Sequence record: OR067838.1
Length of the DNA: 64,000 nucleotides
Reading direction: 5' to 3' (one strand)
Source: Escherichia phage KKP 3954
This document shows, in pieces, positions 3,777 through 62,977 of this stretch; position 1 is the stretch's first letter, and every line of letters begins with the position of its first letter. The notes beneath the pieces were generated by a model that had not been told where the DNA came from, ran no database searches, and saw only the letters and a program-made list of their open reading frames with translations. Both the position numbers and the translations under genes were made by a program.

Positions 3777-4885
3777 CAAGTCCATTTTTAAAAGCAGCTA
3801 CTGGTGGTCAGAAGAAGCCTGAAATGAGCGTATTTGCTGCAACAACAGATGCAAGTAAATCTGTATTCGCTCCAAGCGTGTTAGATGCCAGTCCTGTTTA
3901 TGCACCAGCGGCACCGCAAGAAGTTCCAGTTTTGCCTTCTATGACCCGACAAGAGATCGAAGAGATTGGGGCAGAGGCAGGAACAACCTTGCGTTCCTTG
4001 AATGCCGAGGTATTAAAACATCAACGTAGTAATCAAGGAGATCAGATGAGTGAACGACTCACAGCTTTGATTAAACAGGCAAAACAACTTGATCCAAACT
4101 CTATTAAACAAAGCAAAGGTATTACTAAACTCATTAAAAAAGTTATGGGTATGAAAGAAGACCTGTTTGGGGAGTTTGATAATGTTAATAACCGTATTGA
4201 AGAGTTGGTAAAGAACCTTCAAATGGATATTCGCAAAGAAGAAGATTCCTTGGTATATCTTGAAAAGCTACATCAAGCTATTGGACAATATGCCGCAAGT
4301 TTGAACCGAGATATGCAGCTTCTAACAGCAACCTACGAAAAAGAAGAACAAGCTTTGGCTGCTCTTCCAGAAGATGCGGTAGAACAGCGACAAGTGATCC
4401 GAGATACTTTGGATCTTCTGGAGATTCGTATTGCGGATTTAAAAGCATTGCGCCTACTGTGTGTCCAAATGGGACCACGTGTGCAAGGTATGCAAAAAGT
4501 TTCTGCAAGCTTAATGCGATCTGCGCGTAACATAGTAAATAATGTTATTCCTGCTTACTCTGCTAACTTCTCAATGTATATTGAGAGCTTGCGTCAAATG
4601 AAAGCCGCAGAGACGCAGAATAACGTTCTTGATGAATTTAACCTGGCAATTAAACTGGGTAGCGATCTTGCCACACAGAATCAGATCGAAGCAGCAGCAC
4701 TGGCTAACCGTCAAGTGTTGGATATTGAAACTCTGCGTCACGATCAGGAAAACTTGGTTAAGATGTTGGAAGAAACTAACCGCATCAATACGGAAGCCCG
4801 TGCTGCTCGTGTTGATTATATTAATGAAGTTCAATCTCTGGAAGACGGGATGGTAGCTGCTGTGAAACGAGGGCTTGGTAAATGA
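3773..4885 (+). CDS. telA: TelA-like (toxic anion resistance family) protein, alpha-helical/coiled-coil
   Basis: About 370 aa, helical, Q/E/L-rich; size, composition and Ter-gene context fit the TelA/KlaB family; family assignment from memory, not searched. Confidence 0.5.
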   Translation: MTSPFLKAATGGQKKPEMSVFAATTDASKSVFAPSVLDASPVYAPAAPQEVPVLPSMTRQEIEEIGAEAGTTLRSLNAEVLKHQRSNQGDQMSERLTALIKQAKQLDPNSIKQSKGITKLIKKVMGMKEDLFGEFDNVNNRIEELVKNLQMDIRKEEDSLVYLEKLHQAIGQYAASLNRDMQLLTATYEKEEQALAALPEDAVEQRQVIRDTLDLLEIRIADLKALRLLCVQMGPRVQGMQKVSASLMRSARNIVNNVIPAYSANFSMYIESLRQMKAAETQNNVLDEFNLAIKLGSDLATQNQIEAAALANRQVLDIETLRHDQENLVKMLEETNRINTEARAARVDYINEVQSLEDGMVAAVKRGLGK

Positions 4886-6282: not shown

Positions 6283-7079
6283 ATGTCCGAGAAAATCAGC
6301 CTGAAAAAACGTCAAGAAAACCTTGCTTTCTCTCTGAAAAAGAATAAGAACCTGAACGAAGGTAAGATTGTTCTTCGTGTAGCATGTGCTCTAGATATTT
6401 CTGGTAGTATGCATGGTCTATATACTCGTGGGGTAGTGAGTGATTTTGTAGGTAAACTGCTTCCTTTTGGTATGCTGTTCGACGATAATGAACAAATTGA
6501 CATGTGGGCCTTCAATACGAGTTCTCAAGAGCTTACTCCAGCAACAGCAGACGTTTACGATGACTACGTTGGTAAATGTATGCGTAATGTTCGTATCGGA
6601 GGTGGAACAAATTACGCCCCTGTAATGGCAGATATCTACGATGAGTATTTTGGCACTGTTACCAAATATGTTACCACTAAACAAGTGGTATACAAGAGGA
6701 GGCTCCAAAGAAAGGCTTCTTTAATCGTCTGCTTGGTAAAACTGAAACAGTATCGGTAGAGCGTGAAAAAGTTGTAGCTGTATCTGAACCAGGTGCTGAT
6801 GTTACTCCTGGCGTTGTATTCTTCCAGACAGACGGTGAGAATGGTGATCCTAGTGCTGTTCGTCGTCTTATTGAAGAGAATAAGAATAAGCCTATCTATT
6901 GGTTCATGGTTGGCGTTGGTAATGAGAAGTTCAGCTTCCTGAAAGAACTGGCAAATGCTTATGACAATGTTGGTTTTATTGGCATTAAAGATTTAGACTT
7001 GACAGATTCAGAGCTTTATGACAAACTCTTATCTGAAGAGTTCGGAGAGTGGGTTGTTAAAGTAGGTGCTAAAAAATGA
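6283..7079 (+). CDS. vWA domain protein with TerD-like N-terminal motif; reading frame broken near 6690-6710 (track ORF 6283..6759 continues in another frame to 7079)
   Basis: MIDAS motif DISGSM and GGGTNYAP in first frame; the vWA TDG segment (VVFFQTDGENGD) lies in the downstream frame, which has no start codon of its own until about 6907. Confidence 0.55.
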
Positions 7080-45365: not shown

Positions 45366-47355
45366 TTAACCACCAGTGTTAGATTGTCCACTTAGAGTTG
45401 AAAGAGACAAACGTTGGAAAATACTATTTCCGCTATTTTGAATTCTTGCATCAAGAATATTTCCAAACTCGGAAGAAGGGCTGATCGTAACTTTGATAAG
45501 ATCACTTGGTATTGCTACCGTATTCTCAACAACAGGTTGATTACGAGCCAAACTTACGTTAGGTGTATAGGCTGATTCACGTAAATCTTCAAGAGGATTA
45601 CCAAATCCAAAAGCACGTGTCCTTGTTTGTTCTCCTCTCCACATACGACCAATATCTTGTGTATCAATACCTGTTAAATTATACAACCAATCTGCTACAG
45701 GATTGCTGTCTCCACTTTGCGTTGCCTCGTATGCTTTTTGTGCCAAAGATTTATTAGGATCTGTGTTGTCTCCGAAGGTATCTGGGAATGTTTCTTTAAG
45801 CCAATTGGTAAAAGATCCGAAACCATCTCCTAATTCTTTAGCAAAACCACCAAGTTGAACTGTTGTTTTACCAAGTTCTTCACCTAAATCTTTGGCGAAC
45901 TGATCTAGCACTTTAACGTTATCCAACCAAGAATCATCTTTAGGTAAAGCTTTTACAAAACCTTCTAAGAAATGGTTCTGCATACCTTGACCTACAAGCT
46001 GAACTGTTGCAGCAAAACGAGTAAACTCTTTAGAAGCATCTATTTGTTCTTGAGTTAATGTTGCACCTGTTCTTTGAAGCATTTTCAATACTTCATTATA
46101 CCCTTCGCCGTTTTTACTAAACATACGTTGGTAGTGCATAAGGTCATCACCAAGGTTTTCAAGAAGTCGCCCGATTTGAGCGGAGTTCATACCTCGACGC
46201 TCACCTTCATTAACAGTAGCCTGAATAAAAGCTAAAGGATCGTTCTGTAAAGGTTTAAGCTGTTCTGGATTCCATCCAAACAAGTTCATAATGTCAGTTA
46301 TGCCATTATCACCGCCTTTCCACTTCCCTTCTTTCTCATTCCACTTTGCAGCTAAAACTGTATTACCAAGACGTTCACGAACGTCTTTAATATTATCTAT
46401 TGATTTAATAATATTTGCAGAGTCTACACCGTTCTGTTCACCCCAAGCTGTCATTGCCAAAATAGCGTTGGCGTTTGTCTGAACGTTTTCAGCACCACGG
46501 CTTACAAGTTTAATTCTTTCGTTAGTATTCATCAACGTGTTACCAACTACAGAACCACCTGCAAACAGCCCAGCACCTATTAAAGAGGATGCAATCATGC
46601 GTGGATTAAGACCTGCCGCACCTTCTTTTAATTGTCCATATCGACGATCACGATCACGTTTTTGTTGAGCTAATTCACGCTTACGGTTGCGTTCTATATC
46701 TCTAAGTTCACGATTTCGCATACGTATACGCATTTTAGCTTCTGCTTCTAACTCTCTACGAATACGGCGACGACCGCGAACCTCGTCTTCTATTTCAGCA
46801 TTCTTTTCACGATGCGATCTGCGTAAAGCATCCAACTGGTGAGCAAGAGCTTGGTTCATACGTTGAAGAGTTATTTCACCCTTTTTGTATTGCTCTACAG
46901 CTTTACCCATAACATCTCTAGCTTCTTGCATAGCGCCAGGACTGGCTTTACTAAATGCTCTTGCTCTGTAGTTAAAGTTCTGCAAACGAAGATTACCTAA
47001 GTCTTCCCTACGTGCTGCTGCTTTAGCTTCGCGTTCAGCAGCTTTACGAGCTTTTTTCTTCTTCTCTTCCTTGCGGGGTTTTAGGAGTTCTAGGTCTGCC
47101 AGATCCGCCTACAGGAGCACCCGCTCCAGCGGGAGTAGGTGCTCGCATAGGTTTTTGACTTTGAGTTTGAGCTTTCTTAAGTTCACGCTCAATCTCTTTC
47201 ATTTGTTGTCTAAACTTGGTCATGTTCATAGTGGGTTGCATTTTATTTGCAAACTTCTGAACACTCAACACGGCATCTTTTGCTTCCTTGAGACTGTTCT
47301 TGTCCACCTTAAACGTAACCACGTTACTAATTTTGGAGGCGTTAATTTCTAACAA
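45366..47355 (-). CDS. tail tape measure protein; two ORFs (47044..47355 and 45366..46985) joined by a +1 frame break at a 6-nt homopolymer
   Basis: TTG start after GAGGA; both parts K/R/E-rich helical; break at plus T6 47053-47058; removing one base fuses the frames. Confidence 0.55.
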
Positions 47356-47375
47356 AGTATGTTCCTCGTGTTGGA

Positions 47376-48124
47376 TTAAACAAGTTTCTTAAACAAATCT
47401 GACATTTTATTTGTCTGGTTTTGATGTTTTCTCTTTATTGAAGTGTCTTTAACATACATGGCTTCAACATACTCTTCGTATGTTAAATACTCATATAGTT
47501 TTAAAAGATAATCTACACCGTAGTTATCCAATGTTTTCAGTGTTTCCGAGGTATCTTTAACGACTTTGCAAAGAATAACCTCATACCACTTCAAAGTAAG
47601 GGTTTTCGTTGCTGTGTCGATAGCATGTTCAATCGCAGGTGTTAATTTGCTGCTAAACTCGTCATCGCCTGAAGCTGTGTGAACAGTTTTCCGAAACCTC
47701 GTTTGAAAAAAGGGCCGTAGTTTACCTCCAGAACTTTAGCAGTAAGATCTAACACTAGTTCTGGGTGAGCCATAAATAATTCATCAAAATTTTCTGCAAC
47801 GTTATAACCGTCTTGAGTATAAACCTCATCTAAAATTTTACGCAAAAAGACAGTTAAATTCTTTTCTTCCAAACCTGCAAAAAGTTGGATCAGTGCCATA
47901 GCAATACGTGACTCAAGGTCTTCGTCTGCGGACATTGTTGCTGTGCTATACATAGTCATAGGAACAACCAGAACACTACCCAATTCTGGAATCCTGTCAA
48001 ACACTTTAGATGGACTCCACTTCATAATACGGAAAGTAACAGATCTGTTTCCATCTAACGGAATCTCAACTACTTCTTCTGGTCGAGCATATTTTTGAAT
48101 TGTGTTATCTTGTTCTTGTGACAT
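47376..48124 (-). CDS. tail assembly chaperone, long form produced by -1 ribosomal frameshift (G-T type)
   Basis: Slippery heptamer U UUU UUC on mRNA (plus 47705-47711); -1 frame open from there to stop at 47376; gene sits between tube and tape measure. Confidence 0.5.
47642..48124 (-). CDS. tail assembly chaperone, short form
   Basis: 160-aa ORF between tube and tape measure genes. Confidence 0.55.
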   Translation of the reverse strand: MSQEQDNTIQKYARPEEVVEIPLDGNRSVTFRIMKWSPSKVFDRIPELGSVLVVPMTMYSTATMSADEDLESRIAMALIQLFAGLEEKNLTVFLRKILDEVYTQDGYNVAENFDELFMAHPELVLDLTAKVLEVNYGPFFKRGFGKLFTQLQAMTSLAAN

Positions 48125-48140
48125 ATTTTCCTCTCTAATG

Positions 48141-48163
48141 ATAAAAAGGGCATTTCTGCCCTT
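48141..48163 (-). terminator. rho-independent terminator after tube gene
   Basis: AAGGGCA-GAAA-TGCCCTT then TTTTTAT on minus strand. Confidence 0.5.
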
Positions 48164-48169
48164 TATTTA

Positions 48170-48649
48170 TTATTGAATTGTCAGAGCAGAGATTGAGTTA
48201 AGGGTGCTCAAACCTACACCAACTTCATTACGCAGAAGGCTTGCATCTTTAAGACCAATAACCCATTGGTTCTCTGTAATCATTTCGCCAATAGTATCTT
48301 CAGGCTGACTTTGAATCCATCCAATCGTGCTAATGTAATAGCCACGTGGGTCTTCCAAGTAAACACTGAATGCTACTTGACGAGTAGAATACATTGTTTG
48401 TGCATATGTTGCAAGTACTTCGTTAGCTGGAGATGTGCGTTGCAAAGACATTGTGAGTGTTCCCAAACGGTTACGACTCAAAGCTAGTGAAACGTCGCCA
48501 TCAGTCCCTGAATAAGGGTTGATAATATCGTTAGATTTAGCAATAACGATTTTAGTATCAGCCGCAAAACCCCACGGTTCCCAACCACCTAATGAAAGGA
48601 TAACTTGAGATGGGTCGTAGGCCATTACGCCAGTAAGCATTTTATCCAT
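48170..48649 (-). CDS. tail tube protein
   Basis: 159 aa, directly downstream of sheath; AAGAGGA RBS. Confidence 0.55.
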   Translation of the reverse strand: MDKMLTGVMAYDPSQVILSLGGWEPWGFAADTKIVIAKSNDIINPYSGTDGDVSLALSRNRLGTLTMSLQRTSPANEVLATYAQTMYSTRQVAFSVYLEDPRGYYISTIGWIQSQPEDTIGEMITENQWVIGLKDASLLRNEVGVGLSTLNSISALTIQ

Positions 48650-48661
48650 TATAGATCCTCT

Positions 48662-50072
48662 TTATTTTGATAACGGGGGGCTTAACCCCCGCCGTATTAG
48701 TTTGCAAGTACGGTTAGTCAGGACGTTGACCTGAACTTTAACGTAATGGAAGAAGCCAGCGTAAACATATTCAATCTTCATCCCATCAACCAGACGAGCA
48801 TTGATTTGCGCATCGGTCATATCGGCACGAGAAGGAATATAAACAATAGGTTTCAGATCGACACGCAAACCAGTCTCTTCAGAAGTAACAACTTCATTAG
48901 CGATGGAACCGTTGAGGATACCTACTTGGATCGGGTTAGCCAGAACAGCTTGTCGAATCAAAGCCAGACCGTTTGAAGTAGCACGAACACCACCACCCAG
49001 CATAGACTGTTGTTTAAACAGTGTAAACAGTGATTCTTCTGTGCGAGCTTTAAACCACAAAGCATGAACAACATAGTCAACAAAGAAACCGCTAACCATC
49101 AATCCATCACGATAGAACAGAGTTCCATGCTCTTTACGATAGATGTTACCGTTCTGTTGAACAATATTGTTTTCCGAAGTCTGATCCAGTTTCTCGATCT
49201 CTACTCCTACCAGTGTTTTACCGTGAAGGGTAGTTAAACCAGGTTGACGAGAACAGATTGCACCAACAACTGCTGCTTCTGGGAATACAGAATCTGCATC
49301 AGTCATCCACAAAGCAAAGCAAGTGTTATTATAACCGAGGTCATTCAGTCGTTCCAGAACGTTATCTTCTGCTTTCGTTTTAATTCCAGGTTCAGAGCTA
49401 GAGAAGAAGTAAACTTTATCATTCTCTTCTACCCATGCAGCCAAAGCTAGAACATCTTCTGTTTCATGGGAATCTGAAAGGGTCCAGAACCAGCTACTAT
49501 CAATATCATGCAGAGCAGCGATATCTTCCGTAATAGCATTAGCATAGACAGTTTCTTGAGTGAAACCTGTGCTGTCAATAGAACCAAACTTACCTTCTAC
49601 TGGAGTGAAAGTCATTGCAGCGCCGTTGTTAGCTACTGTAAACAGTGGGCCATAAACAAGATCTGCATTGATCATTTCAGTCAGACCAACTACAATCTCT
49701 TGTGCAGTTGCAGTGTCATCAGCAATGAATTTAAATTCTTTTTTCTTGGGTACCATTTTTGATGGTAATTGTGTAAGTTGCACTATCTTCTACGATTGGA
49801 GTTAGAGTAAAGTTTGTAACTTCACGCTTACCAACCATGACTTGATCTGGTGGGAACAAACCGTTAAACAGTTTGACTGCCATAATATACGCTGGATCAT
49901 TTAATCCATAACCTGCTTCCAAAAGTGCATCGGAAGAAGAGTAATATTGAATCGCTTCGCCAGTTACGTTCTGACCTGTAAGGATCAGAGGAATATCGAA
50001 CTGGGTTTCACGAATTGATGTAGCACCATACAGTAAAGTTACGGTTGCTACCTTTTCACGAAAAGTTGCCAT
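48662..50072 (-). CDS. tail sheath protein; two ORFs (49731..50072 and 48662..49783) joined by a +1 frame break at a 6-nt homopolymer
   Basis: AGGAG RBS before ATG 50072; break at plus T6 49739-49744; combined about 470 aa upstream of tube gene. Confidence 0.55.
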
Positions 50073-61053: not shown

Positions 61054-61132
61054 TGGAGGCGGGAATTGGATTTGAACCAATGATCTCCAGCATATGAAAC
61101 TGGCGAGGACGACCAGACTCCTCTATCCCGCT
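61054..61132 (-). tRNA. tRNA-Met (anticodon CAT), initiator-like
   Basis: Manual fold: T-arm ATTGG-TTCAAAT-CCAAT, anticodon loop TTCATAT; 3' CCA encoded; ends approximate by 1-2 nt. Confidence 0.6.
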
Positions 61133-61138
61133 ATCATG

Positions 61139-61208
61139 TATCCCGTGCTGGATTCGAACCAGCGTCACAATAAATTGTGGATCTCTTATCCTGTAAGTCT
61201 AACGGGAA
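61139..61208 (-). tRNA. tRNA-like gene, aberrant (anticodon arm has only a 4-nt loop); possible pseudogene
   Basis: Good T-arm GCTGG-TTCGAAT-CCAGC and 6-bp acceptor stem, but anticodon region folds as CACAA-TTTA-TTGTG. Confidence 0.4.
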
Positions 61209-61210
61209 AC

Positions 61211-61284
61211 TGGTTGTTTCGACAAGAATCGAACTTGTGTCTCACGATTATCAGTCGTGGGTTCTACCATTGAACTACGAAACA
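61211..61284 (-). tRNA. tRNA-Ile (anticodon GAT)
   Basis: Manual cloverleaf: acceptor TGTTTCG/CGAAACA, loop CTGATAA, T-arm ACAAG-TTCGATT-CTTGT, CCA encoded. Confidence 0.7.
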
Positions 61285-61290
61285 TTTAAT

Positions 61291-61367
61291 TGGTCGGAAT
61301 TGCAGGATTCGAACCTGCGACCCTACGCTCCCAAAGCGTATGCTCTACCAAACTGAGCTAAATTCCG
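61291..61367 (-). tRNA. tRNA-Pro (anticodon TGG)
   Basis: Manual cloverleaf: acceptor CGGAATT/AATTCCG, loop TTTGGGA, T-arm GCAGG-TTCGAAT-CCTGC. Confidence 0.7.
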
Positions 61368-61372
61368 TTATA

Positions 61373-61448
61373 TGGCTGGTCTGTCTGGATTTGAACCAAA
61401 CCTACGACAGTCAAAGTGTCGTGTGCTACCGGACTACACTACAAACCA
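61373..61448 (-). tRNA. tRNA-Gln (anticodon TTG)
   Basis: Manual cloverleaf: anticodon stem CGACA/TGTCG, loop CTTTGAC. Confidence 0.6.
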
Positions 61449-61546
61449 ATAAATCATTTAATGAAGGGCAACCAGAAGAAGTGTGAGAGAAGGAGAAAAC
61501 CATGAGTAAAAGAGAAAGTTTTCTGGCAACCCTTTATTAAATAATT

Positions 61547-61620
61547 TGGAGCGTTCTACGAGGATCGAACTCGTGCCGCCGACTTGGAAGGACGGAATGC
61601 TACCGCTACACCAAGAACGC
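61547..61620 (-). tRNA. tRNA-Gly (anticodon TCC)
   Basis: Manual cloverleaf: acceptor GCGTTCT/AGAACGC, loop CTTCCAA, discriminator U. Confidence 0.6.
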
Positions 61621-61631
61621 CCTATATATTT

Positions 61632-61661
61632 ACTATACTACATTTTACTATTTGTTGTCAA
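61632..61661 (-). promoter_or_regulatory. sigma70-like promoter on minus strand (TTGACA, 18-nt spacer, TATAGT) for the downstream tRNA genes
   Basis: Hexamers read from reverse complement just upstream of tRNA-Gly. Confidence 0.5.
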
Positions 61662-61933
61662 GACTTTTATTGATTGGGACAGTGACGAGTATCCCGTTGG
61701 GTGACTAGCCCTACGTTCGGTAAGCTAACTTAAAATAATACAAAACCAAAGTCAAATATTATTCTTCGTTGCTGTCGATGGGAGAGCCGCTTCTCATTTT
61801 GCCCCATCCAACCCTACTCCGGTCAAGTTTCGGGTGACTCTTTTTGTGATCAACACAATACTAAGAACACTGTCTTTCGAGCAGACCTTGTGCACAGGAA
61901 CGACGATCAATCACAATGCTCTTAATGTTGTGT

Positions 61934-62008
61934 TGGTGCTCCCACACTGAATCGAACAGAGATCCACGGATTACAAAACCGTTGTAATAGCCATTATACT
62001 ATAGGAGC
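61934..62008 (-). tRNA. tRNA-Thr (anticodon TGT)
   Basis: Manual cloverleaf: acceptor GCTCCTA/TGGGAGC, loop TTTGTAA. Confidence 0.6.
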
Positions 62009-62014
62009 AATGCT

Positions 62015-62091
62015 GGGACTCGGCAGGATTCGATACCTGCAATTCCAGAAGCCTATTGGCGACTGGGGGTTTACCTTAACTCTACAAGTCC
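62015..62091 (-). tRNA. tRNA-like gene, anticodon unresolved (irregular anticodon arm, 8-nt T-loop)
   Basis: 7-bp acceptor stem GGACTTG/CGAGTCC and T-arm GCAGG-TATCGAAT-CCTGC, but no canonical 5-bp/7-nt anticodon arm. Confidence 0.4.
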
Positions 62092-62098
62092 ATAATTC

Positions 62099-62184
62099 TG
62101 GCGATGAGTATAGGATTCGAACCTATATTGTTCTTTCGAACACGGATTAACAGTCCGCCGCTTAAACCGTTCAGCCAACTCATC
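62099..62184 (-). tRNA. type-II (long variable arm) tRNA with Asn anticodon GTT
   Basis: Perfect 7-bp acceptor GATGAGT/ACTCATC, discriminator G, CCA encoded; anticodon arm CGGACTGTTAATCCG; variable arm GTTC-GAAA-GAAC. Confidence 0.6.
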
Positions 62185-62190
62185 TTAATT

Positions 62191-62278
62191 TGGTGGTGAG
62201 TGATGGAGTCGAACCACCCGAATCGCAATGATAACAGATTTACAGTCTGCCCCGCTACCCCTACGGAATTAACTCACC
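62191..62278 (-). tRNA. tRNA-Tyr (anticodon GTA), type II
   Basis: Anticodon arm GCAGA-CTGTAAA-TCTGT; discriminator A; CCA encoded. Confidence 0.65.
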
Positions 62279-62409
62279 TAAATACTAATATTTAAATTCT
62301 TTTTAAAATAGCCAGTGTTCGCACCACTAACTATGAGTTATCGGTAAGATGGTGGGGGGCTATCTTCCGAAAGTTTACTCTATTAAAGTAAGCTACATTA
62401 AAAAGAACT

Positions 62410-62495
62410 TGGCGGTAGATGTAGGACTCGAACCTACACGCCGTTTCCGACTACAGTTTAGCAAACTGTCGTGGCTACCATTTCACCAATCTACC
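62410..62495 (-). tRNA. tRNA-Ser (anticodon GCT), type II
   Basis: Anticodon arm ACAGT-TTGCTAA-ACTGT; long variable arm; discriminator G. Confidence 0.7.
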
Positions 62496-62500
62496 TAATC

Positions 62501-62591
62501 TGGCGGAAGGAGGGAGAGTCGAACTCCCAAGGCTCTTTCAAGCTCGGCGGTTTTCAAGACCGTTTTCGTCGCCACATCGATTTGCCCTTCC
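62501..62591 (-). tRNA. tRNA-Ser (anticodon TGA), type II
   Basis: Anticodon loop CTTGAAA; T-arm GGGAG-TTCGACT-CTCCC; long variable arm. Confidence 0.65.
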
Positions 62592-62599
62592 ATACTTAT

Positions 62600-62629
62600 A
62601 ATCTAACATAAAATAATGATTGTTGTCAA
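62600..62629 (-). promoter_or_regulatory. possible sigma70-like promoter on minus strand (TTGACA; -10 TAGATT) upstream of tRNA-Ser
   Basis: Hexamers read from reverse complement. Confidence 0.35.
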
Positions 62630-62825
62630 TACTTTTTTAAAACATTTTACCATGAATGGTGACTCCACCAACCCCCGTTCTCCACGAACGGTGCTCTTCG
62701 AGCATTTATGTCTTCTAATATAACCGTGGCCTTTGTTTATAATGTCTGACATACTTGCCTCATTCTCTGCCACCATGATCAGTAGTGGGTTCAAATCACT
62801 TGAGCTAATTCATGTTAAAATGTTC

Positions 62826-62900
62826 TGGTGTCTTTACAAGGAATCGAACCTTGACTAAGAGTTTAGAAGACTCCTGTGCTATCCATTACACCATAAAGAC
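62826..62900 (-). tRNA. tRNA-Arg (anticodon TCT)
   Basis: Acceptor GTCTTTA/TAAAGAC; loop CTTCTAA; T-arm CAAGG-TTCGATT-CCTTG. Confidence 0.65.
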
Positions 62901-62902
62901 GT

Positions 62903-62977
62903 TGGTGGCCCTGGCTGGTTTCGATCCAGCTACCTATCGGTTATGAGCCGACAGCTCTCCCATTGAGCTACAGGGCC
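62903..62977 (-). tRNA. tRNA with anticodon CAT, Ile2 (lysidine)-type by resemblance to E. coli ileX; alternatively elongator Met
   Basis: Acceptor GGCCCTG/CAGGGCC; loop CTCATAA; 5' and 3' ends resemble E. coli tRNA-Ile2. Confidence 0.6.

What the first reader, a model, noticed from the sequence alone, without database searches (positions are those of the whole stretch)
47700..47716. Conserved -1 programmed frameshift site in the tail assembly chaperone gene
Between tube and tape measure genes, ORF 47642..48124 contains the slippery heptamer U UUU UUC (plus 47705-47711) about 20 codons before its stop, and the -1 frame is open from there to 47376. This matches the conserved G / G-T chaperone frameshift of tailed phages.
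Basis: partly seen in the sequence, partly recalled or inferred. Interest (0 to 1): 0.45.

Follow-up and report, generated by a model that had tools for sequence, protein, structure and literature searches.

The report
Tail chaperone -1 frameshift site, confirmed

Summary
The window is a Phapecoctavirus (phAPEC8/ESCO5-like myovirus) with its tail genes on the minus strand.

ORF 48124..47642 (160 aa) is a Pfam Phage_TAC_15 tail assembly chaperone. It lies between the tube gene and the tape measure gene. T_TTT_TTC (47711..47705) sits in the X_XXY_YYZ phase at codons 139-140. The -1 frame is open from 47735 to the stop at 47376, which gives a 249-aa GT fusion.

The heptamer alone is not unusual (17 copies in the window, 29 expected). 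The comparative evidence is what decides it:
- 57 related loci were collected, 47 of them unique, spanning Stephanstirmvirinae, Vequintavirinae and Plateaulakevirus. All have the T domain in the -1 frame and an invariant in-phase TTTTTTC with no synonymous variation.
- Ordinary Phe codons in the same alignment are nearly saturated for synonymous change.
- The stretch between the G stop and the first possible start codon evolves like coding sequence. In some relatives no start codon exists for about 77 codons.
- An outgroup (Barbavirus) has replaced the site with lambda's G_GGA_AAG.

I found no conserved downstream RNA structure. An upstream GGAGG is a possible stimulator.

Verdict: a real -1 programmed frameshift and a new member of a known kind. 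None of the GenBank/RefSeq records checked annotate it.

The parts
47642..48124 (-). Gene G (TAC-N): the 160-aa tail assembly chaperone, product of standard decoding. The stop is TAA at 47644..47642.
47705..47711 (-). Slippery heptamer U_UUU_UUC (codons 138 third base, 139, 140: ..CCU UUU UUC). This is the proposed -1 shift site.
   Evidence: Sequence and phase. Invariant and in phase in 47/47 unique related sequences, with no synonymous differences at codons 138-140. Also present in Aeromonas phage 2L372D. U_UU.U_UU.C is a frameshift-prone motif in E. coli (PMC4066793).
47708..47714 (-). Overlapping second in-phase heptamer C_CCU_UUU. Together with the main heptamer it makes a 10-nt slippery run, C CCU UUU UUC. 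A slip here gives the same protein.
   Evidence: Present in 20 of 47 unique sequences, the Stephanstirmvirinae-type group. C_CC.U_UU.U is listed among efficient E. coli motifs (PMC4066793).
47376..47705 (-). T segment: -1-frame codons read after the slip (109 aa, QTRFRK...KKLV) plus the TAA stop at 47378..47376. The -1 frame is open from 47735.
   Evidence: Translation. The T-domain HMM matches the -1 frame in 57/57 loci. Third-codon-position excess of substitutions in the -1 frame, including the startless stretch between the G stop and the first start codon. PHROG 16039 and 10409 hits.
47376..48124 (-). GT (TAC-NC) fusion coding region: 140 aa from frame 0 plus 109 aa from frame -1, 249 aa in total.
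   Evidence: Fusion lengths in 12 distinct relatives are 241-252 aa.
47724..47729 (-). Shine-Dalgarno-like GGAGGU. 13 nt lie between GGAGG and the heptamer. Candidate 5' stimulator, inferred only.
   Evidence: It is the strongest anti-SD duplex (-10.6 kcal/mol) in the last 470 nt of gene G. A site of -6 kcal/mol or better lies within 26 nt upstream in 83% of unique relatives, but it is absent in ChuuTotoro and KP13-16. The Glu codon here is GAG in 33 of 39 Glu codons, whereas GAA dominates the other two Glu columns listed.
47691..47698 (-). Conserved GGUUUCGG, 6 nt 3' of the heptamer. It encodes G-F-G in frame 0 and R-F-R in frame -1, and contains an in-phase U_UUC tetramer (GGU UUC).
   Evidence: GGT 46/46 and TTC 40/46. 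Invariant columns in A1. No covariation supports a hairpin. Absent in 2L372D. Best explained by dual coding.
47592..47594 (-). TTG used as the start of the separately annotated 72-aa 'hypothetical protein' (phAPEC8 gp105). It is actually codon Leu178 of GT.
   Evidence: No SD sequence upstream (GCAACGAAAACCCTTACT). Conserved T residues lie upstream of it.
48170..48649 (-). Tail tube gene (159 aa), immediately upstream of G.
   Evidence: PHROG 280 E=3e-35. Pfam KPP10_Orf10 scores 24.4 bits, just under its cut-off of 25. Called 'putative tail tube' in OM386667.1 and OM362897.1. It follows the sheath gene.
45366..47355 (-). Tape measure gene, immediately downstream. It is intact (662 aa) in ESCO5 and phAPEC8. 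In the window it is split into 103-aa and 539-aa ORFs by one extra A at 47057.
   Evidence: PHROG 16051 E=0 for the ESCO5 protein.
48145..48164 (-). Terminator-like hairpin between the tube gene and G.
   Evidence: Annotated as a terminator in phAPEC8.

Best explanation

Most ribosomes read gene G (48124..47642) to its stop and make the 160-aa chaperone. When tRNA-Phe molecules occupy UUU (P site) and UUC (A site) at 47710..47705, a minority re-pair one base upstream on U_UUU_UUC. They then continue in the -1 frame (CAA ACG AGG ...) to the TAA at 47378..47376. The result is a 249-aa GT protein: the N-terminal 140 aa of G, a variable Gly/Ser/Asp-rich linker, and a conserved roughly 70-aa helical T domain.

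By analogy with lambda gpG/gpGT and P2 E/E+E', G and the G part of GT would coat the tape measure protein. The T domain would recruit the tube protein, and neither protein would end up in the virion.

What is shown here: the gene order, TAC homology, in-phase slippery site, startless coding -1 ORF, and deep conservation including slip-site replacement in an outgroup.

What is inferred: that the slip is ribosomal, that its efficiency is in the low per cent range, that the upstream GGAGG helps, and the binding partners.
For: (1) Anatomy
- The heptamer is in X_XXY_YYZ phase, 20 codons before the stop.
- The -1 frame is open for 109 codons after it, and the +1 frame is closed.

(2) Identity
- G matches Pfam Phage_TAC_15 at 82.7 bits and PHROG 3840.
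- The flanking genes are the tube and tape measure genes.

(3) Conservation
- In 57/57 loci from about 15 lineages the T domain is in the -1 frame relative to G.
- TTTTTTC is invariant in 47/47 unique sequences.
- Codon 138 is always NNT although it encodes Pro, Cys or Ser. Codons 139 and 140 are TTT and TTC in 46/46 sequences.
- Another invariant Phe in the same alignment is TTC 28 / TTT 18, with 49% synonymous pair differences.

(4) The shift window is tightly bounded
- The -1 frame opens 0-3 codons before the heptamer in many relatives. In L035 a TAG stop lies directly before it.

(5) No independent initiation
- The first ATG/GTG/TTG in the -1 ORF moves about between relatives.
- In Hena1 it lies about 77 codons after the slip, beyond conserved T residues.
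- There is no SD sequence before the window's TTG at 47594.
- The stretch between the G stop and that TTG has substitutions of 161/120/279 at -1-frame codon positions 1/2/3. The rest of T shows the same pattern, 619/466/1088.

(6) Slip-site turnover
- Rheinheimera phage Barba35A lacks the U run (HYGCLTSGKSF).
- It has an in-phase G_GGA_AAG four codons downstream and a homologous T domain in the -1 frame.

(7) Motif competence
- U_UU.U_UU.C and C_CC.U_UU.U are frameshift-prone in E. coli, and the former is used by IS elements (PMC4066793).
- P2 E/E+E' uses TTTTTTG without a downstream structure (PMC3091744).

(8) No fused GT protein exists among database proteins
- All 41 hits are about 160 aa and cover 57-64% of the fusion. 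The long form is therefore not encoded contiguously anywhere.
Against: - There is no direct evidence of the GT protein. No proteomics or reporter data were found in the literature searched.
- No conserved 3' stimulatory structure was found. RNAalifold predicts 0 pairs on 28 sequences. The window's downstream 107 nt fold no better than shuffles, z = 0.17. The small GGUUUC..GAAACC hairpin shows no covariation.
- The upstream SD-like element is not universal.
- Insertion of one U by RNA polymerase on the T6 run would give the identical protein, and sequence alone cannot exclude it.
- The heptamer on its own is common in the window.
Confidence: 0.88

Rival explanations
1. Transcriptional slippage. 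RNA polymerase occasionally adds one extra U on the T6 run, and the edited mRNA is translated normally into the same 249-aa GT protein.
For: - The site is a homopolymer run, and the product would be identical in sequence.
- Runs of U/A are known slippage sites. UUUUUUU is avoided in all frames of E. coli genes, possibly for this reason (PMC4066793).
- The absence of any conserved 3' stimulatory RNA structure fits either mechanism.
Against: - Efficient bacterial slippage is described for runs of about 9 A/T (PMC5009743). Here the run is held at exactly 6 followed by C in 47/47 sequences, although T7 would slip better.
- No nascent-RNA hairpin abuts the run.
- The Barbavirus orthologue uses G_GGA_AAG, which is a ribosomal heptamer and not a homopolymer.
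- The close contractile-tail precedent P2 (TTTTTTG) is described as translational.
Confidence: 0.07
2. Two separate genes. The downstream ORF is translated on its own from TTG 47594 as a 72-aa protein, as annotated for phAPEC8 gp105. The heptamer is just a Phe-Phe dipeptide.
For: Several GenBank/RefSeq records annotate a separate small 'hypothetical protein' here. A TTG exists at 47594.
Against: - There is no SD sequence before the TTG.
- Annotated starts differ between relatives. In rV5 the annotated start is a CTG 3 nt before the heptamer.
- Hena1 and KB57 have no start codon until far inside the conserved domain.
- The startless upstream stretch evolves as coding sequence in the -1 frame.
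- Synonymous sites of the Phe-Phe codons and the preceding wobble base are frozen.
- The frame relation is -1 in 57/57 loci.
Confidence: 0.03
3. A chance or non-functional coincidence of a common heptamer with an open -1 frame.
For: TTTTTTC occurs 17 times in the window, fewer than expected by chance. Many gene pairs in the window overlap in the -1 frame.
Against: Among 75 ORFs of 100 aa or more, this is the only one with both a long (30-codon) overlap containing an efficient heptamer and a -1 extension of 88 codons. The conservation results are incompatible with chance.
Confidence: 0.01

Closest known systems
Phage lambda gpG / gpGT tail assembly chaperone frameshift (Levin 1993; Xu, Hendrix & Duda 2004, 2013, 2014; summarised in PMC5009743)
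   Same: - Two overlapping ORFs sit between the major tail (tube) gene and the tape measure gene.
- A -1 shift near the 3' end of G gives a G-T fusion.
- T has no start codon of its own.
- The expected role is chaperoning the tape measure protein and recruiting tube subunits.
- The Barbavirus relative even uses lambda's own heptamer, G_GGA_AAG.
   Different: - The heptamer is U_UUU_UUC rather than G_GGA_AAG.
- The host virion is a contractile-tailed myovirus of about 150 kb.
- G belongs to a different Pfam TAC family (Phage_TAC_15).
- The ratio and binding partners are untested here.
Phage P2 E / E+E' frameshift (Christie et al. 2002; described in PMC3091744)
   Same: - Contractile-tail phage of E. 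coli.
- A -1 shift on a run of six U (TTTTTTG) in the chaperone gene, between the tube and tape measure genes.
- No downstream RNA structure.
   Different: - The seventh base is G rather than C.
- The proteins are much smaller (91 and 142 aa).
- I detected no sequence similarity.
- The P2 case is experimentally demonstrated, and this one is not.
TAC-N / TAC-NC -1 frameshift proposed for Vandenendeviridae (Pakpunavirus Adele) and Andersonviridae (PMC12846349, Dec 2025)
   Same: - These are sister clades of Stephanstirmvirinae and Vequintavirinae according to that paper.
- The same locus is mis-annotated as TAC plus a 'hypothetical protein'.
- There is an invariant poly-T motif (GTTTTT) near the 3' end of TAC-N.
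- The -1 frame is uninterrupted.
- The argument is purely comparative.
   Different: - That study did not report the site for Stephanstirmvirinae or Vequintavirinae.
- The motif here is (C/G)TTTTTTC with a fixed phase.
- Codon-level statistics and a case of slip-site replacement are added here.
E. coli dnaX -1 frameshift cassette
   Same: An SD-like sequence lies upstream of a homopolymeric heptamer. In dnaX the spacing is about 10 nt (recalled from Larsen et al. 1994, not checked here). In the window, GGAGG lies 13 nt upstream.
   Different: - dnaX also has a strong 3' stem-loop and shifts at about 50%.
- No 3' structure is found here.
- The SD-like element is only partly conserved.

Membership tests
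G/GT-type tail assembly chaperone programmed frameshift (Xu, Hendrix & Duda 2004) | A pair of overlapping ORFs located between the major tail/tube gene and the tape measure gene | tested here: met
   The order is sheath, tube (48649..48170), G (48124..47642), -1 ORF (to 47376), tape measure gene (from 47355)..
G/GT-type tail assembly chaperone programmed frameshift (Xu, Hendrix & Duda 2004) | The downstream ORF is in a shifted frame, overlaps the 3' end of the upstream ORF, and lacks its own start codon and ribosome binding site | tested here: met
   It is in the -1 frame with a 30-codon overlap. The first candidate start (TTG 47594) is 37 codons after the slip and has no SD sequence. The position of the first start codon is not conserved, and in Hena1 it lies about 77 codons after the slip..
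G/GT-type tail assembly chaperone programmed frameshift (Xu, Hendrix & Duda 2004) | A slippery sequence in the correct phase inside the overlap | tested here: met
   U_UUU_UUC at 47711..47705, with C_CCU_UUU overlapping it.. Motif competence in E. coli: PMC4066793.
G/GT-type tail assembly chaperone programmed frameshift (Xu, Hendrix & Duda 2004) | The arrangement is conserved in diverged relatives | tested here: met
   57/57 loci show it. The heptamer is invariant in 47/47 unique sequences with frozen synonymous sites. The Barbavirus outgroup has replaced it with G_GGA_AAG..
G/GT-type tail assembly chaperone programmed frameshift (Xu, Hendrix & Duda 2004) | A fusion protein is made at a low fixed ratio to G and is required for tail assembly, and neither protein is in the virion | not testable with these tools
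   This needs a reporter assay, mass spectrometry and phage genetics. No published data were found.
Pfam PF21822 Phage_TAC_15 (tail assembly chaperone) | Score above the curated gathering threshold over most of the model | tested here: met
   82.7 bits against a cut-off of 22, with residues 29-143 matching model positions 3-125 of 127. All 41 database homologues carry PF21822.
TAC fold (HK97 gp10-like, PDB 2ob9) | Structural similarity of the G domain to solved chaperones | tested here: inconclusive
Canonical -1 PRF cassette with 3' stimulatory stem-loop or pseudoknot | A conserved RNA structure 5-9 nt downstream of the heptamer | tested here: not met
   RNAalifold predicts 0 pairs. Folding z-score is 0.17. 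The candidate hairpin has no double-sided changes. No Rfam family matches. Such a structure is not required for the G/GT class: the lambda shift is low-level and P2 lacks a structure.

The most novel reading that the evidence does not exclude
The site may be the core of an ancient recoding cassette that works without any RNA structure. On this reading the invariant GGUUUCGG 6-9 nt downstream and/or the upstream GGAGG act as sequence-specific stimulators, for example by mRNA-rRNA pairing, or as a second U_UUC slip site that yields a GT isoform differing by three residues. Alternatively, the long form may be made by transcriptional slippage on a run of only six U. Either would make this widespread phage group a simple model for structure-independent frameshift tuning.
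Probability: 0.1. Interest if true: 0.45.

Novelty: new member of a known kind. Interest (0 to 1): 0.25.

Why it matters
The mechanism itself is textbook, so the value is practical and comparative.

- **Annotation.** The tblastn searches found homologous loci in 358 to 495 phage genome records, including phAPEC8-, phi92- and rV5-like phages. In all 19 loci whose annotation I inspected, this locus is given as a chaperone alone or a chaperone plus an unrelated small 'hypothetical protein' (or nothing). The 5.8-billion-protein collection contains no fused product. Correct annotation adds a real, probably essential tail-assembly protein.
- **Evolution.** The data give a clean natural experiment on slip-site evolution. 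The U_UUU_UUC heptamer is frozen at the nucleotide level across at least two subfamilies. In one outgroup it has been replaced by lambda's G_GGA_AAG. This argues that the frameshift itself is what selection maintains, not the Phe-Phe dipeptide.
- **Mechanism.** The site offers a structure-free heptamer with a candidate SD-like stimulator in an E. coli system that is easy to test.

Tried and rejected
- **3' stimulatory RNA structure.** Single-sequence folding gave z = 0.17. RNAalifold on 28 diverse sequences predicted 0 pairs. Per-sequence MFEs over 45 nt were weak and inconsistent. An explicit test of the GGUUUC..GAAACC hairpin showed no covariation, and its 5' arm is invariant. I rejected this as unsupported.
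- **Rfam.** A scan of 47300-48200 gave only a sub-threshold SraG hit on the other strand.
- **Other slip sites in the overlap.** A_AAU_UAA at the stop codon is not conserved. The U_UUC tetramer in GGU UUC is conserved in most relatives but is replaced by UUA or UUG in rV5 and L038 and is absent in 2L372D. It is at best a secondary site.
- **+1 frameshift.** The +1 frame closes 4 codons past the G stop.
- **Fold and sequence searches against the PDB.** Foldseek found nothing significant. The sequence search found nothing significant either.
- **Literature.** Searches for phAPEC8, Phapecoctavirus, rV5, Vequintavirinae or Stephanstirmvirinae together with 'frameshift' found no explicit description of this site. 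The rV5 genome paper does not mention it. The closest paper is the Adele study on sister families. The Vladimirov et al. 2022 paper on T4-like chaperones is not held.
- **Sequencing artefact.** I considered that the T run might be an error, because the window has homopolymer insertions elsewhere. I rejected this: the site is identical in ESCO5, phAPEC8 and all relatives.

Full report
**What the window is**

A megablast of 47000-48700 finds 61 phage records at 99% identity or more. All are Phapecoctavirus (phAPEC8, ESCO5 and relatives; Stephanstirmvirinae). They are myoviruses of about 150 kb that infect E. coli.

In RefSeq ESCO5 and phAPEC8 the local gene order is tail sheath, 'virion structural protein' (called tail tube in other records), tail assembly chaperone, then the tape measure protein. 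phAPEC8 also annotates a 219-nt hypothetical protein before the tape measure gene. In the window all of these genes lie on the minus strand.

**Checking the observation**

- ORF 48124..47642 is 160 aa.
- On the minus strand the sequence reads ...AAC UAC GGC CCU UUU UUC AAA CGA GGU UUC GGA..., with TTTTTTC at 47711..47705.
- The first U is the wobble base of codon 138, followed by UUU (139) and UUC (140). This is exactly the X_XXY_YYZ phase.
- Twenty sense codons separate the heptamer from the TAA at 47644..47642.
- The -1 frame is open from 47735 to the TAA at 47378..47376. Read from the re-used C at 47705, it adds 109 aa, giving a 249-aa fusion.
- The +1 frame is closed.

The heptamer by itself means little. 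There are 17 copies in the window, and dinucleotide shuffles give 29.5 +/- 5.1. Among the window's 75 ORFs of 100 aa or more, however, this is the only one that combines a long overlap containing an efficient heptamer with a long -1 extension.

**Is the T run an artefact?**

The window differs from ESCO5 by several single-base or two-base insertions that break the sheath, tape measure and other structural genes. I therefore checked the slip site specifically. It is identical in ESCO5, phAPEC8 and every relative examined.

**What the proteins are**

- The G part matches Pfam Phage_TAC_15 (82.7 bits, cut-off 22) and PHROG 3840 'tail assembly chaperone' (E=3e-50).
- The -1 part matches only unannotated PHROGs (16039, 10409). 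These are the small ORFs that annotators call here.
- An AlphaFold2 model of G (pLDDT 72) gives no significant Foldseek hit in the PDB.
- The ESCO5 tape measure protein matches PHROG 16051, and the sheath matches DUF3383 and PHROG 205.

**Comparative evidence**

This is the core of the case.

*Loci collected.* A tblastn with the conceptual fusion finds the two halves as two adjacent pieces in different frames in hundreds of phages. I collected:
- 16 GenBank loci covering Phapecoctavirus, Justusliebigvirus, KP13-16, Vequintavirus rV5, Henunavirus, Mydovirus, Seunavirus, Certrevirus, Avunavirus, ChuuTotoro and A73;
- 40 IMG/VR loci.

One of the two search patterns used for IMG/VR included the FF dipeptide at the protein level. 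That biases towards Phe-Phe but not towards particular codons. The other pattern lay in the T domain.

*Frame relation.* HMMs of the G and T halves place T in the -1 frame relative to G in 57/57 loci. In the 12 distinct relatives aligned, fusion lengths are 241-252 aa at 22-76% identity to the window protein.

*Invariance of the heptamer.* Among 47 unique nucleotide sequences TTTTTTC is invariant and in phase. It is the only slippery pattern common to the overlap.

*Bounded shift window.* In many relatives a -1-frame stop lies 0-3 codons before the heptamer. In L035 a TAG directly abuts it. The shift can therefore only occur at or after this point.

*Codon-level conservation:*

| Position | Codons seen | Note |
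|---|---|---|
| Codon 138 | CCT 20, TGT 24, AGT 2 | Three different amino acids, always a T at the wobble position |
| Codon 139 | TTT 46/46 | No synonymous variation |
| Codon 140 | TTC 46/46 | No synonymous variation |
| Phe117 (comparison) | TTC 28, TTT 18 | 49% synonymous pair differences |

Neighbouring conserved codons are in the same range as Phe117. This is selection on the nucleotides, not on Phe-Phe.

**No independent initiation of T**

- The first ATG/GTG/TTG in the -1 ORF after the slip lies at different places in different phages.
- In Hena1 it is about 77 codons downstream, and in KB57 about 83 codons downstream. In both cases it lies past the conserved 'SL-W-D-YL' core of T.
- In the window the first candidate is TTG 47594, which is Leu178 of the fusion. 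It is preceded by GCAACGAAAACCCTTACT, which has no SD sequence.
- Within the Stephanstirmvirinae-type group, substitutions in the 16 codons between the G stop and that TTG fall 161/120/279 on -1-frame codon positions 1/2/3. Downstream T shows the same signature, 619/466/1088.
- In the true overlap the G frame dominates, with 238/140/101.
- The 'intergenic' stretch is therefore translated in the -1 frame and has no start codon. It has to be entered from G.
- No contiguous fused protein exists among 5.8 billion database proteins. All 41 hits are about 160 aa.

**Outgroups**

- Aeromonas phage 2L372D (Plateaulakevirus) keeps U_UUU_UUC and has a 98-codon -1 extension.
- Rheinheimera phage Barba35A (Barbavirus) has lost the U run; the protein reads HYGCLTSGKSF there. 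Four codons downstream it carries an in-phase G_GGA_AAG, the lambda G-T heptamer. The -1 ORF that follows encodes ...VFRIPSG... and a homologous T domain.
- Replacing one slippery heptamer with another while keeping the frame relation is what one expects if the frameshift is the selected trait. It also argues for a ribosomal mechanism, because G_GGA_AAG cannot support polymerase stuttering.

**Mechanistic details**

- U_UU.U_UU.C is among the frameshift-prone heptamers measured in E. coli. It gives more than 0.1% shifting without a stimulator, H_HH.U_UU.Y is among the most efficient classes with one, and it is used in IS elements. C_CC.U_UU.U, which overlaps it in the window as C CCU UUU UUC, is also efficient (PMC4066793).
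- A slip anywhere in this 10-nt run gives the same protein.
- I found no conserved downstream structure and no Rfam match. This is in line with P2 E/E+E', which shifts on TTTTTTG without one (PMC3091744).
- Upstream, GGAGGU (47729..47724) has 13 nt between GGAGG and the heptamer. It is the strongest anti-SD match in the last 470 nt of G.
- A comparable site is present in 83% of unique relatives but is missing in a few. The Glu codon involved is GAG in 33 of 39 Glu codons in that column, whereas GAA dominates the other two Glu columns listed. I regard it as a plausible, unproven 5' stimulator of the dnaX type. The dnaX spacing rule is recalled from memory and was not checked.
- The invariant GGUUUCGG downstream encodes G-F-G in frame 0 and R-F-R in frame -1. 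It contains an in-phase U_UUC tetramer. Dual coding explains its conservation, and it is absent from 2L372D, so it is at most a secondary slip site.

**Function (inferred)**

This follows lambda. There, gpG and the G part of gpGT bind the tape measure protein, and the T domain binds the major tail protein. The molar ratio is about 30:1 and neither protein is in the virion (PMC5009743). By analogy, G and GT here would chaperone the 662-aa tape measure protein and recruit the 159-aa tube protein. A terminator-like hairpin between the tube gene and G (annotated in phAPEC8) would lower expression of the chaperone and tape measure genes relative to sheath and tube.

**Rival explanations**

| Rival | Assessment | Confidence |
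|---|---|---|
| Transcriptional slippage on T6 | Gives the same protein and cannot be excluded from sequence. Disfavoured by the short run capped at six in all 47 unique sequences, the lack of an adjacent hairpin, and the Barbavirus heptamer | about 0.07 |
| Independent translation of a 72-aa ORF | Contradicted by the start-codon and codon-position data | about 0.03 |
| Chance | Excluded by the comparative data | about 0.01 |

**Novelty**

The G/GT frameshift is a classic (Xu et al. 2004). A December 2025 paper argued on similar comparative grounds for a -1 frameshift on a conserved GTTTTT motif in the chaperone genes of the sister families Vandenendeviridae and Andersonviridae (PMC12846349). 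It did not report the site for Stephanstirmvirinae or Vequintavirinae.

None of the 19 GenBank/RefSeq loci I inspected annotates a joined CDS. The rV5 record annotates gp050 from a CTG 3 nt before the heptamer.

I therefore rate this as a new member of a known kind: solid, useful for annotation, and unsurprising to a specialist.

Noticed in passing
window 54007, 49750, 48707, 48680, 47057, 44424, 39302: Relative to ESCO5 (98.6% identity) the window has seven coding-region insertions of 1-2 bases. They break the head decoration, sheath (three times), tape measure and 958-aa tail protein genes. Five of the seven sit at or next to a GTAC, for example GTAC to GTATAC. Frame-breaking changes in essential genes suggest systematic sequencing or basecalling error at a motif, possibly a modified one, rather than biology.
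   Followed up: partly
whole window; L059 (ESCO5 55200-100000): GTAC is strongly depleted. There are 26 sites in 64 kb against about 229 expected from base composition, and ESCO5 has about 1.0 per kb. GATC, CATG, TGCA and ACGT occur at 2.4-5.2 per kb in the window. This suggests avoidance of a GTAC-specific restriction system. ESCO5 annotates a DNA methyltransferase between the portal and scaffold genes.
   Followed up: partly
L058 (Rheinheimera phage Barba35A) about 1825-1831; G gene 1417-1887: The orthologous chaperone gene has lost the U_UUU_UUC site. It carries lambda's G_GGA_AAG heptamer in phase four codons downstream, followed by a 74-codon -1 extension encoding a homologous T domain. 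This is a natural slip-site replacement.
   Followed up: yes
window 48145-48164 (minus strand): A terminator-like hairpin (AAAGGGCAGAAATGCCCTTT followed by T-rich sequence) lies between the tube gene stop and the chaperone gene start. It could set lower expression of the chaperone and tape measure genes relative to sheath and tube.
   Followed up: no
window 61054-62977 (minus strand): A cluster of 10 phage tRNA genes: Met x2, Ile, Pro(UGG), Gln, Gly, Thr, Asn, Ser, Arg. There is no tRNA-Phe, so the slip site is decoded by host tRNA-Phe. The tRNA-Pro region shows local rearrangement compared with ESCO5.
   Followed up: no
L006 (rV5) 1851-2219; L002 (phAPEC8) 4606-4824: Database annotations of the T segment are inconsistent. 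rV5 gp050 is annotated from a CTG 3 nt upstream of the heptamer, overlapping gp051. phAPEC8 gp105 starts at an internal TTG. ESCO5, SF1-1 and Hena1 annotate nothing there.
   Followed up: yes
window 6283-6759 (plus strand): This ORF has a 25-codon overlap with a -1 ORF that extends 106 codons. The only in-phase heptamers are weak (A_AAG_GCT, T_TTA_ATC). It is probably an ordinary overlapping gene pair.
   Followed up: no
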